This document shows, one piece after another, positions 24,635-26,342 of a stretch of DNA of 64,000 nt. Each line of letters opens with the position of its first letter. The stretch's first letter is position 1. The stretch is from positions 32,001 through 96,000 of the forward strand of contig DASZWM010000005.1 in the NCBI GenBank assembly GCA_035546615.1. Direction: 5' to 3'. The DNA comes from Minisyncoccota bacterium. Its GTDB lineage: Bacteria > Patescibacteriota > Minisyncoccia > Phycocordibacterales > SBAW01. The notes under the pieces were generated by a model. The model was given only the letters and a program-made list of their open reading frames with translations, was not told where the DNA came from and did no database searches. Made by a program: the position numbers and the translations under genes.

Positions 24635-24692
24635 GAAAACGAGCTCACGCTCGTTTTTCGTTTTGGCGTTTTCGTTGTAGGTTTATAGACAT

Positions 24693-24776
24693 GCCCAGGT
24701 GGCGAAATTGGTAGACGCACTACCTTGAGGTGGTAGCTCCCGCAAGGGATTGGAGGTTCGAGTCCTCTCCTGGGCA
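24693..24776 (+). tRNA. tRNA-Leu (anticodon GAG), type II.
   Basis: Acceptor GCCCAGG/CCTGGGC, anticodon stem CTACC/GGTAG with loop TTGAGGT, long variable arm CTCCCGCAAGGGAT, T-arm GGAGG-TTCGAGT-CCTCT. Confidence 0.8.
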
Positions 24777-24785
24777 CAAAAAAGA

Positions 24786-24823
24786 CAGAATAATCTGCCC
24801 TGCGGCAGATTATCTGCTTTTTG
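24786..24823 (+). terminator. Rho-independent terminator after tRNA-Leu.
   Basis: CAGAATAATCTGCC-CTGC-GGCAGATTATCTG hairpin followed by CTTTTTG. Confidence 0.8.
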
Positions 24824-24978
24824 TGAGCCGGAGCGATGTTTCGCGAGTACGCGAAACCGCGAGGCAGGGTCGTGCGGCCGCATTCGCGACGGCGAATGCG
24901 GAACGCCTGACCAAAAGGATTTGTAGATGTGACGCAGACCCTAGATTAAGGGTATTTCCGACGGTTCCCACGGAGGTC

Positions 24979-25007
24979 TTGACAAAGTACCCGAAAGGGT
25001 ATACACT
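24979..25007 (+). promoter_or_regulatory. Sigma70-like promoter.
   Basis: TTGACA, a 17 nt spacer, then TACACT (TATACT immediately after). Confidence 0.5.
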
Positions 25008-25014
25008 ATACTTA

Positions 25015-25316
25015 GTTGTGAGGGAGCCAGCCTACGGTGTGTCATCGTGCACCGAAGGTGGGACCGGAAAGTGGCAACCTCGCGCCGGGACGATCGCAAA
25101 AGTCCCTTCTGTTCTTTCAGCGCGGAACGCGCAACGTGGTCTACTGTTTAGATGGTCTTGGGTCGCGAGGAGGTCAAAAATAACCCGCGACACTGCAAAA
25201 GTGATTGGCAATCTCAATCATGAAGGACCGTCACACGTAAGAATGGAAAAACCAAGGTCCTCGGACCAGTGGCCCCCCAGCACAACTGCATTGACAGTTG
25301 AGTGGGGGCCTTTTTA
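25015..25316 (+). ncRNA. Candidate structured leader / riboswitch-like RNA upstream of the TerC/DUF475 membrane protein gene; identity unknown.
   Basis: About 300 nt with no credible ORF, bounded by a promoter and an intrinsic terminator (GGCCCCCC ... GGGGGCC + TTTTT at 25271..25316) that ends 25 nt before the start codon at 25341. Many local hairpins. Confidence 0.3.
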
Positions 25317-25340
25317 CATTCAATGTAGTATTCTGTAACA

Positions 25341-26342
25341 ATGAAACTTTTCATCGCCCCCATCGTCATTTCGTTCATAGCGCTTATCGCCGTATTCCTG
25401 TGGGGCGGTACGGCAGCCCTGCTTCTTGCCGCAACGCTGGCGGTGCTCGAAGTGACGCTTTCTTTCGACAACGCGGTCGTCAACGCGAAGGTGCTCGAGG
25501 AAATGGACGCGCGCTGGCAGCGCAGGTTCCTTACCTGGGGCATCATCCTTTCGGTATTCGGCACGCGCCTGGTGCTGCCGATACTTATCGTCAGCGCCGT
25601 GGCATTTACTTCGCCGTTCACCATTACGACGCTGGCCCTCTACGAGCCCGACCAGTATTCTGCGCTTCTTACTTCGGCCGAGGCGGCTATCAAGGCGTTC
25701 GGCGGCGCATTCCTGCTCATGGTGTCGCTCAAGTATTTCTTCGACGTCGGCAAGAGCGTGCACTGGTTCGCGCCGCTTGAGCGCCGCTTGTCGCGGTGGG
25801 GAAGGGTGGAGGCGATTGAGATCGCTTTGGCGCTCGCCATGCTGCTCGGCATCTCCTACGTGTCGCACGACTCGGTTGAGACGATACTCCATGCCGGCAT
25901 TATCGGCATCATCCTCTTTACGCTGACGGAAGGCATCGCGCACGGCCTCGGGGTGGAAACCAAAGGCGCGGTCCGCTCGGGCCTCATGCTCTTCGTCTAT
26001 CTCAATATCCTCGACTCGGCCTTTTCTCTGGACGGCGTCATCGGCGCGTTCGCGCTCACGACCTCGCTCCCGATAATCGTGGCGGGCCTTGGCATCGGCG
26101 CGTATTTCGTCCGCTCGCTCACGGTCTACCTGGTACGACAGAAGACGCTTGCGGCGTTGAAGTACCTGGAGCACGGCGCGCACTGGGCGATATTCGGCCT
26201 GGCGCTCTCGATGTTCGCCGGCCTGATAATCCGCGTGCCGGAAGTGGTGATAGCGGGCATTGGGCTCGGCTTCATCACGCTTGCGTACATTTCGTCCCGC
26301 CGCGCCCTGCGCGCGGACGAAGTGGCCGAGTCGCTCGGCTAG
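25341..26342 (+). CDS. Integral membrane protein, DUF475/TerC-like family.
   Basis: 333 aa, about nine TM helices, paired LEVTLSFDNAVV and LDSAFSLDGVIGAFALT motifs typical of the TerC/DUF475 clan. Confidence 0.6.
   Translation: MKLFIAPIVISFIALIAVFLWGGTAALLLAATLAVLEVTLSFDNAVVNAKVLEEMDARWQRRFLTWGIILSVFGTRLVLPILIVSAVAFTSPFTITTLALYEPDQYSALLTSAEAAIKAFGGAFLLMVSLKYFFDVGKSVHWFAPLERRLSRWGRVEAIEIALALAMLLGISYVSHDSVETILHAGIIGIILFTLTEGIAHGLGVETKGAVRSGLMLFVYLNILDSAFSLDGVIGAFALTTSLPIIVAGLGIGAYFVRSLTVYLVRQKTLAALKYLEHGAHWAIFGLALSMFAGLIIRVPEVVIAGIGLGFITLAYISSRRALRADEVAESLG

What the first reader, a model, noticed from the sequence alone, without database searches (positions are those of the whole stretch)
24979..25340. 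330 nt promoter-to-terminator leader upstream of a TerC/DUF475 membrane protein: riboswitch-like architecture
A good sigma70-type promoter (TTGACA-17-TACACT) drives a roughly 300 nt non-coding transcript. The transcript is full of hairpins and ends in an intrinsic terminator 25 nt before the ATG of a TerC-clan membrane protein. TerC-family genes are a classic target of the yybP-ykoY Mn2+ riboswitch. Only loose resemblance to that consensus is visible here (GAGGGAGCCAGC and GUGUCAUCGUGCAC segments). The element is much longer than a typical yybP-ykoY aptamer, so it may be a different or composite regulatory RNA. RNase P RNA, tmRNA, SRP RNA and 6S RNA signatures were looked for and not found.
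Basis: partly seen in the sequence, partly recalled or inferred. Interest (0 to 1): 0.55.

Follow-up and report, generated by a model that had tools for sequence, protein, structure and literature searches.

The report
Orphan small RNA gene, not riboswitch
The promoter-to-terminator segment is real and probably makes a folded ~300-nt non-coding RNA, but it is a self-contained small-RNA gene dropped in front of the DUF475 membrane-protein gene in this lineage only, not a riboswitch controlling that gene.

Summary
In detail: TTGACA-17-TACACT promoter (24979-25007), a ~300-nt hairpin-rich stretch, a -24.5 kcal/mol terminator (25271-25315), and the DUF475/TerC-clan ATG 25 nt later.

The riboswitch/leader reading does not hold.
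- Rfam gives no hit, even at E<=10.
- DUF475 orthologues in the relatives with readable DNA (81-89% aa identity) lack the ~384-nt segment. They keep a -10-like box 6-9 nt before the ATG, so DUF475 probably has its own near-leaderless promoter.
- No similar RNA was found in about 750 kb of DUF475 and alaS loci.
- The one true homologue found sits elsewhere: in Candidatus Kaiserbacteria RIFCSPHIGHO2_01_FULL_49_13, 22 nt after alaS and 335 nt before an unrelated gene. Promoter hexamers and spacing are identical, the spacer has diverged, and the terminator is kept.

The two copies are 78% identical (90% in the 5' half). Indels of 8, 26, 2, 6 and 3 nt lie mostly at predicted hairpin tips. Of 61 predicted pairs, 5 change compensatorily and none breaks. 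No reading frame shows coding-type substitution.

Best reading: a free-standing structured sRNA gene of an undescribed, rare Paceibacterota family. Function is unknown, and only two distinct sequences exist.

The parts
24693..24777 (+). tRNA-Leu(GAG), the upstream neighbour. In relatives DUF475 follows it directly.
   Evidence: ARAGORN; Rfam tRNA 52.8 bits; the same tRNA is in L083 and L084.
24790..24822 (+). Terminator-like hairpin plus T-run after tRNA-Leu. It isolates the element from upstream transcription.
   Evidence: -16.4 kcal/mol, z = -5.1; a homologous hairpin is present in L083 and L107.
24938..25321 (+). Lineage-specific insertion of about 384 nt relative to orthologous loci. Boundaries are approximate to about +/-12 nt. 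It contains the whole promoter-RNA-terminator cassette.
   Evidence: Alignment of the window with L083 and L084; sequences.
24979..24984 (+). -35 hexamer TTGACA of the sRNA promoter.
   Evidence: identical in L089 at 9423-9418.
25002..25007 (+). -10 hexamer TACACT of the sRNA promoter, 17-nt spacer.
   Evidence: identical hexamer and spacing in L089 at 9400-9395, while the spacer sequence differs.
25014..25316 (+). Predicted structured small RNA, about 300 nt. The start is inferred at 7 nt after the -10; the end is at the U-tract.
   Evidence: nhmmer E = 3e-41 to L089; 77.7% identity over 260 ungapped columns; 61 consensus pairs, 5 compensatory, 0 broken; no Rfam hit.
25018..25083 (+). 5' domain. 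Closing helix 25018-25022/25079-25083, helix 25026-25029/25072-25075, a variable apical hairpin, and the invariant 12-nt internal loop GGGACCGGAAAG (25060-25071).
   Evidence: The apical part carries an 8-nt indel and substitutions; the loop is 100% conserved.
25087..25106 (+). Hairpin GGGAC-GAUYGCAAAA-GUCCC. It is invariant except for one loop position.
25120..25132 (+). Hairpin GCGCG-GAA-CGCGC. It has a G-C to A-U compensatory change in L089 (GCGCA-GAA-UGCGC).
   Evidence: columns 112/116.
25138..25151 (+). Invariant, predicted mostly unpaired block GGUCUACUGUUUAG. It is part of a 23-nt run identical in both genomes.
25151..25238 (+). 3' domain. Long-range helices 25134-25138/25234-25238 and 25151-25158/25225-25232 (two compensatory pairs). 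Encloses a window-specific 26-nt extra hairpin, about 25186-25211.
   Evidence: 26-nt gap in the L089 row.
25271..25315 (+). Intrinsic terminator. Long interrupted stem 25271-25310 followed by UUUUU at 25311-25315.
   Evidence: -24.5 kcal/mol, z = -4.0. The L089 counterpart is -21.1 kcal/mol, with one C-G to G-C swap and a shortened loop.
25326..25331 (+). TAGTAT, a -10-like box 9 nt before the DUF475 ATG. It is the probable own promoter of DUF475, giving a near-leaderless mRNA with no Shine-Dalgarno sequence.
   Evidence: Conserved position in orthologues that lack the sRNA: L084 and L102 TAGTAT, L083 TATACT, L081 TAGAAT, L107 TACAAT. The same layout occurs at many window genes.
25341..26342 (+). 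DUF475 (TerC-clan) membrane protein gene, 333 aa. It is a neighbour, not part of the RNA unit.
   Evidence: Pfam PF04332 E = 1.5e-86, PF03741 E = 1e-16.

Best explanation
Window 24979-25316 is a free-standing gene for a structured small non-coding RNA of about 300 nt. A near-consensus sigma70-type promoter (TTGACA-17-TACACT) would start transcription near 25014. A strong intrinsic terminator (25271-25315) would end it. The product would be a discrete multi-helix RNA with several invariant loop and junction sequences: GGGACCGGAAAG, GAUYGCAAAA and GGUCUACUGUUUAG.

The cassette (promoter, RNA and terminator) is an accessory insertion of about 384 nt into the variable tRNA-Leu/DUF475 spacer of this Paceibacterota genome. 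DUF475 is probably transcribed on its own from a -10 box 9 nt upstream of its ATG.

Shown here:
- the anatomy of promoter, RNA body and terminator;
- conservation of the whole unit in a second genome in a different gene context;
- absence from orthologous loci;
- substitutions and indels of the RNA type, not the coding type;
- no membership in any Rfam family.

Inferred, not shown:
- that the RNA is actually made and stable;
- that it acts in trans. I favour a protein-bound or otherwise tertiary-structured RNA over a simple antisense regulator, because conservation is spread over many loops and helices rather than one seed. Its molecular partner is unknown.
For: 1. A homologous unit lies in Kaiserbacteria contig L089 at 9389-9128 (nhmmer E = 3e-41). 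It starts 22 nt after the alaS stop and ends 335 nt before an unrelated 395-aa gene.
2. The -35 and -10 hexamers and the 17-nt spacing are identical in the two genomes, while the spacer and the upstream flank have diverged.
3. Identity is 77.7% overall and about 90% in the 5' 139 columns. Indels of 8, 26, 2, 6 and 3 nt fall mostly in predicted hairpin tips.
4. RNAalifold gives 61 pairs: 5 change on both sides, 9 on one side, none breaks. Sliding the partner by 1-3 columns gives 0-1 compensatory pairs and 29-45% of cells paired.
5. Differences are 18/122 in paired columns and 40/138 in unpaired columns.
6. Coding is unlikely. In the 131-nt ungapped core, codon-position differences are 6/8/8, 8/8/5 and 8/5/8 in the three frames. 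The only frame open in both copies has 3 synonymous against 13 non-synonymous changed codons. A search of 1.84 billion protein representatives with the long sense frame gave 0 hits.
7. The segment is absent between tRNA-Leu (or the upstream gene) and DUF475 in L081, L083, L084 and L102-L107. The alaS-to-next-gene spacer is 35-57 nt in L092-L098.
8. Fold z-scores are -2.67 for the window and -1.71 for L089. The terminators are -24.5 and -21.1 kcal/mol.
Against: - Only two distinct sequences are known. L099-L101 are identical to L089. Covariation is therefore anecdotal, and the structure was derived from the same two sequences.
- The shuffle control is weak: 15 of 500 shuffles reach the observed values.
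- The single-sequence fold of L089 prefers a different 3' domain, so the 3' half of the structure is unsettled.
- There are no expression data.
- No partner, target or function was identified. Searches for complementarity of the invariant blocks in the window were at chance level.
- High similarity between the two genomes could reflect recent horizontal transfer rather than long-term purifying selection.
Confidence: 0.68

Rival explanations
1. One reading: a cis-acting leader or riboswitch (yybP-ykoY-like or novel) senses a ligand and controls DUF475 by termination or antitermination at 25271-25315.
For: The architecture of promoter, long structured leader, terminator and gene fits, and the element is co-oriented with DUF475, 25 nt upstream. 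TerC-clan genes are riboswitch targets elsewhere: Rfam terC RNA RF03067 lies upstream of a DUF475 gene in L071.
Against: - No Rfam hit, including RF00080 and RF03067, at E<=10.
- The element is absent upstream of DUF475 in every relative examined and in 80 further DUF475 loci.
- The only homologue follows alaS and is separated by 335 nt, including two long palindromes, from an unrelated gene with its own -10 box.
- DUF475 keeps a -10 box next to its ATG with or without the element.
- No conserved alternative antiterminator pairing was seen.
Confidence: 0.07
2. A highly divergent copy of a housekeeping RNA (RNase P RNA, 6S RNA, SRP RNA or tmRNA) that the standard models miss, as is documented for RNase P RNA in CPR bacteria.
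For: Lui et al. 2021 (PMC8172020) found that 10 of 35 complete CPR genomes had RNase P RNAs below Rfam thresholds. The RNA has a strong promoter and the right order of size. Short strings GGAAAGU and AAAGUCC recall RNase P CR-I (read directly from the sequence).
Against: - Rfam gives nothing at E<=10 for either copy on the RNA strand.
- By direct reading of the sequence: the 5' and 3' ends do not pair to form a P1; there is no ACAGAA...GGCUUA (CR-V) and no conserved partner for a P4; AAAGUCCC is the 3' arm of a local invariant hairpin.
- ARAGORN finds no tmRNA.
- The fold is multi-branched, not the 6S rod.
- An essential RNA would be expected in most relatives. No other copy was seen, although only about 10-20 kb per relative was sampled.
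Confidence: 0.05
3. An mRNA for a small protein. The 48-aa (window 25037-25183) or 41-aa (L089 9352-9227) sense ORF is open in both copies, for example a type I toxin-like peptide on a highly structured mRNA.
For: The frame is open in both copies and the stop codon falls in the same alignment column, TAA versus TAG. The patchy, insertion-like distribution resembles toxin-antitoxin loci.
Against: - Changed codons are 3 synonymous against 13 non-synonymous, with differences of 6/8/8 at codon positions 1/2/3.
- Long nucleotide blocks are invariant at all three codon positions.
- There is no properly spaced Shine-Dalgarno sequence and no shared ATG. The start differs between the copies.
- The peptide is not hydrophobic.
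- No antisense promoter was found.
- Neither exact ORF is in the 15-billion-protein collection.
Confidence: 0.05
4. A non-functional relic or selfish cassette, such as a fragment of a decayed mobile element, that carries a promoter and terminator by accident and spreads or persists in variable intergenic slots.
For: - Both copies lie in spacers that vary between close relatives and hold other cargo. The L19-DUF475 spacer holds HicB and His_Phos_1 genes in L102, with a recombinase nearby in L107. The alaS spacer holds a different insert in L091.
- Only two genomes carry it.
Against: - No terminal inverted repeats, target duplications or extra copies were found in the 64-kb window or about 830 kb of related loci.
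- No match was found in viral contigs, phage or plasmid collections.
- The conservation pattern is hard to get without selection on the RNA: hexamers are kept while the spacer is free, indels fall at hairpin tips, and changes are compensatory.
Confidence: 0.12

Closest known systems
Generic bacterial trans-encoded structured sRNA genes with their own sigma70 promoter and intrinsic terminator (orphan 'large-ish' ncRNAs such as raiA-motif RNA, Ms1 or 6S-type RNAs)
   Same: It is a discrete promoter-RNA-terminator unit of a few hundred nt. It has a multi-helix fold, loop and junction sequences more conserved than helices, variable genomic context, and no coding signal.
   Different: It has no sequence or structure match to any of these (Rfam). 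It is known from two Paceibacterota/Kaiserbacteria genomes only. Its function and partner are unknown.
yybP-ykoY Mn2+ riboswitch (RF00080) and terC RNA motif (RF03067)
   Same: It lies upstream of, and is co-oriented with, a TerC-clan gene and ends in a terminator.
   Different: It does not match either covariance model. It is about three times longer. It is not conserved upstream of orthologous genes. Its homologue is unlinked to any TerC or DUF475 gene. The true terC motif is found upstream of DUF475 in a different, non-CPR record (L071).
Divergent RNase P RNAs of CPR bacteria (Lui et al. 2021, PMC8172020)
   Same: Same group of organisms. It is missed by standard annotation, has a comparable order of size and has short CR-I-like strings.
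   Different: There is no P1 closure, no P4 partner and no CR-IV/CR-V. There is no low-score Rfam hit. It is patchily present as an insertion.
Type I toxin mRNAs
   Same: A highly structured ~300-nt transcript with a short ORF, found in variable intergenic slots with patchy distribution.
   Different: The ORF shows no purifying selection, has no ribosome-binding site and encodes no hydrophobic peptide. No antisense RNA promoter was found.

Membership tests
yybP-ykoY Mn2+ riboswitch (RF00080) | Match to the four-helix aptamer with conserved L1/L3 sequences (covariance model). | tested here: not met
   cmscan of 24780-25360 against all of Rfam 15 gave no match at E<=10. The same holds for the L089 copy on the RNA strand.
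yybP-ykoY Mn2+ riboswitch (RF00080) | Conserved position in the 5' leader of Mn2+/TerC-type transporter genes across relatives. | tested here: not met
   Absent upstream of DUF475 in L081, L083, L084 and L102-L107 and in 80 genome loci. The homologue follows alaS.
terC RNA motif (RF03067) | Match to the 59-nt covariance model upstream of terC/DUF475. | tested here: not met
   No hit in the window. As a positive control, the model hits L071 upstream of DUF475 at 61.8 bits.
Riboswitch / transcription-attenuation leader (generic) | The terminator is directly followed by the regulated gene, which depends on the leader's promoter. | tested here: not met
   DUF475 orthologues without the element keep a -10 box 6-9 nt before the ATG. 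In L089 the next gene is 335 nt away with its own -10 box. Actual promoter use cannot be tested in silico.
Bacterial RNase P RNA (RF00010/RF00011) | Covariance-model match; P1 formed by the 5' and 3' ends; P4 pseudoknot with CR-I (GGAAAGUCC) and CR-V (ACAGAA..GGCUUA). | tested here: not met
   No hit at E<=10. Direct inspection finds no CR-V, no P4 partner conserved in both copies and no P1.
tmRNA | tRNA-like domain plus tag reading frame. | tested here: not met
   ARAGORN finds no tmRNA in the window or in L089. No Rfam hit.
6S RNA / SRP RNA | A rod with a central bubble (6S); a helix-8 GNAR loop with symmetric and asymmetric loops (SRP); a covariance-model match. | tested here: not met
   No Rfam hit. 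The predicted fold is multi-branched.
Sigma70-type promoter | -35 and -10 hexamers close to consensus, 16-18 nt apart, conserved while the spacer varies. | tested here: met
   TTGACA-17-TACACT is a 10/12 match. The hexamers and spacing are identical in L089 with a diverged spacer. Activity was not tested.
Rho-independent terminator | A stable GC-rich hairpin directly followed by a U-run. | tested here: met
   -24.5 kcal/mol plus UUUUU in the window; -21.1 kcal/mol plus UUUU in L089, with one compensatory pair.
Protein-coding gene / type I toxin mRNA | A conserved ORF with third-position or synonymous bias, indels in multiples of three, and a ribosome-binding site. | tested here: not met
   Indels are 8, 26, 2, 6 and 3 nt. 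There are 3 synonymous against 13 non-synonymous changed codons, with differences of 6/8/8 by codon position. There were 0 protein hits.
Structured ncRNA under selection (generic) | Statistically supported covariation across many diverged homologues. | tested here: inconclusive
   With two sequences there are 5 compensatory pairs, 9 one-sided changes and 0 broken pairs out of 61. However, 15 of 500 shuffles do as well, and the structure was derived from the same pair of sequences.

The most novel reading that the evidence does not exclude
The two copies define a previously undescribed class of complex-folded RNA specific to Paceibacterota/Kaiserbacteria (CPR). Several of its loops and junctions are invariant. 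It travels as an autonomous promoter-RNA-terminator cassette between variable intergenic slots. It serves a dedicated function, either as a ribonucleoprotein component or as a ribozyme, in these reduced-genome symbionts.
Probability: 0.2. Interest if true: 0.6.

Novelty: new member of a known kind. Interest (0 to 1): 0.33.

Why it matters
If real, this is one of the very few candidate regulatory or structural RNAs proposed for Paceibacterota beyond the housekeeping set. These organisms are uncultured and have tiny genomes, and almost nothing is known about their RNA biology.

The result also removes a false lead: there is no evidence for a new metal riboswitch on DUF475.

It shows in passing that genes in this lineage commonly carry a -10 box directly in front of the ATG. 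'Promoter-leader-terminator-gene' pictures read from sequence alone can therefore mislead here.

With only two members and no function, its present value is as a seed for a covariance-model search of CPR metagenomes.

Tried and rejected
- **Rfam searches.** Gathering threshold on the whole window: tRNAs only. Rfam at E<=10 on the region and on the L089 copy: nothing relevant.
- **DUF475 loci.** nhmmer and blastn of the element against 80 DUF475 loci from GTDB genomes: nothing. Covariance model R1 of the 5' 139 nt over about 830 kb (window, DUF475 loci, alaS loci): only the two known copies. An apparent truncated hit in L087 disappeared with filters off and is only the seeded 18-mer.
- **Metagenome 18-mer scan.** It gave 5 loci. 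Only L089 is a homologue. L086, L088 and L090 read as coding sequence sharing only the seeded 18-mer; L087 likewise shares only the 18-mer.
- **Viral-contig scans.** Five patterns gave nothing, apart from L085, where the 20-mer falls in what reads as a terminase-like coding sequence (a chance match). blastn against phages and plasmids: no match.
- **'Spurious ORF' trick to reach more RNA homologues through protein databases.**
  - Sense frame against 1.84 billion representatives: 0 hits.
  - Exact look-up of 10 overlapping ORFs: only the Kaiserbacteria 95-aa antisense ORF is on record.
  - A chimeric six-frame query found nothing. It also failed to recover that positive control, so this negative is uninformative.
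- **alaS relatives.** None carries the RNA.
- **Possible targets.** Complementarity of the invariant blocks to the window is at chance level.
- **Readings considered and rejected by direct inspection of the sequence.**
  - T-box: GGUGGGACCGG resembles the T-box sequence, but it lies at the 5' end, far from the terminator, and there is no Rfam hit.
  - CsrB-like GGA sponge: the GGA motifs are not conserved between the copies.
  - MITE, IS200/IS605 end, or omega-RNA: no inverted repeats and no TnpB/IscB neighbour.
  - Group I intron: it has its own promoter and does not lie inside a gene.

Full report
**1. What is in the sequence**

The window comes from a Patescibacteria (CPR) genome of the Paceibacterota/Kaiserbacteria type. 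The DUF475 protein is 100% identical to one from a 'Candidatus Paceibacterota' MAG, and the nearest GTDB relatives are CPR genomes.

Around the finding, the + strand carries these features in order:
- pseudouridine synthase and ribosomal protein L19 (24131-24634);
- tRNA-Leu(GAG) at 24693-24777, followed by a terminator-like hairpin at 24790-24822;
- two further spacer hairpins;
- the element under study;
- the DUF475 gene (25341-26342; Pfam DUF475 E = 1.5e-86, TerC E = 1e-16);
- tRNA-His.

- TTGACA (24979-24984), a 17-nt spacer and TACACT (25002-25007), a 10/12 match.
- About 300 nt that fold at -115.7 kcal/mol, z = -2.67.
- A long interrupted hairpin at 25271-25310 followed by UUUUU (-24.5 kcal/mol, z = -4.0). 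It ends 25 nt before the ATG.

**2. Known RNA families**

Rfam 15 finds only tRNAs in the window at gathering thresholds. It finds nothing in 24780-25360 even at E<=10 with permissive filters. ARAGORN finds no tmRNA. The suggested kinship to yybP-ykoY therefore has no support.

As a control on the idea that TerC-clan genes carry riboswitches, the Rfam terC RNA motif (RF03067) was detected upstream of a DUF475 gene in one non-CPR record, L071. It was not detected in any of the 14 CPR loci scanned.

**3. The element is not a conserved leader of DUF475**

I collected 80 DUF475 loci from GTDB genomes. Neither nhmmer, blastn nor a covariance model finds the element in them.

I then fetched the closest DUF475 relatives from metagenome assemblies:
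- **L084 (80% aa identity):** the DUF475 ATG lies 22 nt after tRNA-Leu.
- **L083 (87%):** the spacer holds only the tRNA terminator and the two spacer hairpins.
- **L081 (89%):** a different upstream gene lies 118 nt away.
- **The JGI contig carrying P0004 (86%):** the L19-DUF475 gap is 187 nt.
- **L104/L105:** the gap is 114 nt.
- **L102/L103:** the spacer holds His_Phos_1 and HicB-like genes instead.
- **L107:** the spacer holds an unrelated ~220-nt segment.

The three-way alignment shows that window ~24938-25321, about 384 nt, is an insertion.

All orthologues, with or without an insert, keep a -10-like hexamer 6-9 nt before the ATG. It is TAGTAT in the window, L084 and L102, TATACT in L083, TAGAAT in L081 and TACAAT in L107. 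None has a Shine-Dalgarno sequence. The same layout is seen at many genes of the window and at the p395 gene of L089 and L091. DUF475 thus very probably has its own promoter, downstream of the element's terminator, giving a near-leaderless mRNA.

**4. A homologue in a different context**

One scan of JGI metagenomes with an 18-mer from the element returned five loci. In the four non-homologous loci only the seeded 18-mer matches; three of them read as coding sequence.

The fifth, L089, matches from the promoter to the terminator (nhmmer E = 3e-41). L089 belongs to Candidatus Kaiserbacteria bacterium RIFCSPHIGHO2_01_FULL_49_13. Copies from two other assemblies are identical.

In L089 the unit begins 22 nt after the alaS stop codon. 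It ends 335 nt before an unrelated 395-aa gene that has no Pfam match and its own -10 box. That 335-nt stretch contains two long palindromes.

AlaS relatives at 73% and 67% identity have only 35-57 nt between alaS and the next gene. A relative at 77% has a different 879-nt insert. In both genomes, then, the unit sits as an extra in a spacer that varies between close relatives.

**5. Evidence that it is an RNA gene under selection**

- Between the two copies the -35 and -10 hexamers and their spacing are identical, while the spacer and everything upstream differ.
- The body is 77.7% identical over 260 ungapped columns, and about 90% identical over the first 139 columns. One run of 23 nt is invariant.
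- The indels (8, 26, 2, 6 and 3 nt) fall mostly in predicted hairpin tips.
- RNAalifold predicts 61 pairs. Five change on both sides and stay paired, nine change on one side and stay paired, and none breaks. Sliding the 3' partners by 1-3 columns drops pairing to 29-45%, with 0-1 compensatory pairs.
- The compensatory pairs include the hairpin GCGCG-GAA-CGCGC versus GCGCA-GAA-UGCGC, two pairs in the long-range helix 25151-25158/25225-25232, and one in the terminator stem.

Caveats: with two sequences the statistics are weak (15 of 500 shuffles do as well), and the structure was derived from these same sequences. The single-sequence fold of L089 prefers another 3' domain.

**6. Not protein-coding**

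- The 202-aa ORF that runs from inside tRNA-Leu through the element is closed in L089.
- The sense-frame translation has no relative among 1.84 billion protein representatives.
- One short frame (48 aa in the window, 41 aa in L089) is open in both copies. Its changed codons are 3 synonymous against 13 non-synonymous, and differences fall 6/8/8 on codon positions 1/2/3. The other two frames look the same.
- Invariant blocks are invariant at all three codon positions.

**7. Rivals**

*Divergent housekeeping RNA.* CPR RNase P RNAs are known to escape Rfam thresholds (Lui et al. 2021, PMC8172020). Here, however, there is no sub-threshold hit at all. The 5' and 3' ends do not pair. There is no CR-V (ACAGAA..GGCUUA). 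The CR-I-like string AAAGUCCC is the 3' arm of a local invariant hairpin. The RNA is also shorter than the smallest bacterial RNase P RNA I recall (about 276 nt, from memory, not checked here).

*Others.* A selfish or relic cassette cannot be excluded, but there are no inverted repeats, no extra copies and no match to mobile-element collections. The riboswitch reading is left with only the local geometry in its favour.

**8. Mechanism, as far as it can be stated**

Shown:
- a self-contained promoter-RNA-terminator unit;
- its conservation across two genomes in different contexts;
- RNA-type evolution.

Inferred:
- It yields a discrete, stable RNA of about 300 nt (about 260 nt in L089) that acts in trans.
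- Conservation is distributed over several loops and junctions (GGGACCGGAAAG, GAUYGCAAAA, GGUCUACUGUUUAG, GGUCAAAWAUA) and several helices, rather than one seed. I therefore favour a tertiary-structured or protein-bound RNA over a simple antisense regulator.
- Any effect on DUF475 would be limited to terminator read-through.

No target or partner could be found.

**9. Novelty and score**

The element is a candidate new sRNA family, absent from Rfam 15, in a phylum with almost no described regulatory RNAs. It has only two distinct members, no function and no expression data.

Interest is 0.33. The most novel admissible reading is a dedicated CPR-specific complex RNA that moves as an autonomous cassette. 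I give it about 0.2 probability.

Noticed in passing
window 24635-25340; L102 2585-4368; L107 9348-10001: The L19/tRNA-Leu to DUF475 spacer is a variable slot among close relatives. It is empty in L083, L084, L104 and L105. It holds the sRNA cassette in the window and His_Phos_1 plus a HicB-like antitoxin in L102/L103. In L107 it holds a different ~220-nt segment ending in a terminator-like hairpin, and L107 also has a serine recombinase and a LAGLIDADG gene 4-6 kb upstream.
   Followed up: partly
window 24838-24857 and 24878-24901; L083 3893-3915 and 3936-3959: Two spacer hairpins downstream of the tRNA-Leu terminator are kept between the window, L083 and L107 with compensatory changes (for example CCGCATTCGC-GACG-GCGAATGCGG versus ACCATTTCGC-GACG-GCGAAATGGT). 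Their function is unknown.
   Followed up: partly
window, many gene starts (e.g. 18255, 29045, 29778, 37891, 42065, 46112, 49529): A -10-like hexamer lies 6-10 nt upstream of the ATG with no Shine-Dalgarno sequence at a large share of genes. This suggests that leaderless or very short-leader mRNAs are the norm in this organism.
   Followed up: partly
L089 8971-9258 (+ in locus coordinates), protein P0241: The annotated 95-aa 'hypothetical protein A2671_02395' (OGG46913.1) of the Kaiserbacteria genome lies antisense to the 3' half of the sRNA and the spacer behind it. It is probably a spurious gene call.
   Followed up: partly
L091 11887-12766: At the same alaS-p395 spot where L089 carries the sRNA, a 77%-identity relative carries an unrelated 879-nt insert. 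It has a Glu/Arg-rich ORF of about 145 aa on the + strand, while the database calls a 146-aa ORF on the opposite strand.
   Followed up: no
L089 8975-8946 and 8898-8856: Two long perfect palindromes (30 and 43 nt) lie between the sRNA terminator and the next gene. They produced only chance microRNA-model hits in Rfam.
   Followed up: no
L071 2663-2724: The Rfam terC RNA motif (RF03067, 61.8 bits) lies about 280 nt upstream of a DUF475 gene in a record titled Bacillus subtilis SK6B4. This motif-gene pairing is worth noting, and the record's taxonomic label may deserve a check.
   Followed up: no
window 24730-25338: A 202-aa ORF (GTG start) runs from inside tRNA-Leu through the whole sRNA. It is open only in this genome and has no protein relatives, so it is a trap for gene callers.
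   Followed up: yes
window 25291-25320: A second promoter-like site (TTGACA-18-TACATT) is embedded in the loop and 3' arm of the sRNA terminator. It could be an alternative DUF475 promoter giving a ~14-nt leader.
   Followed up: no
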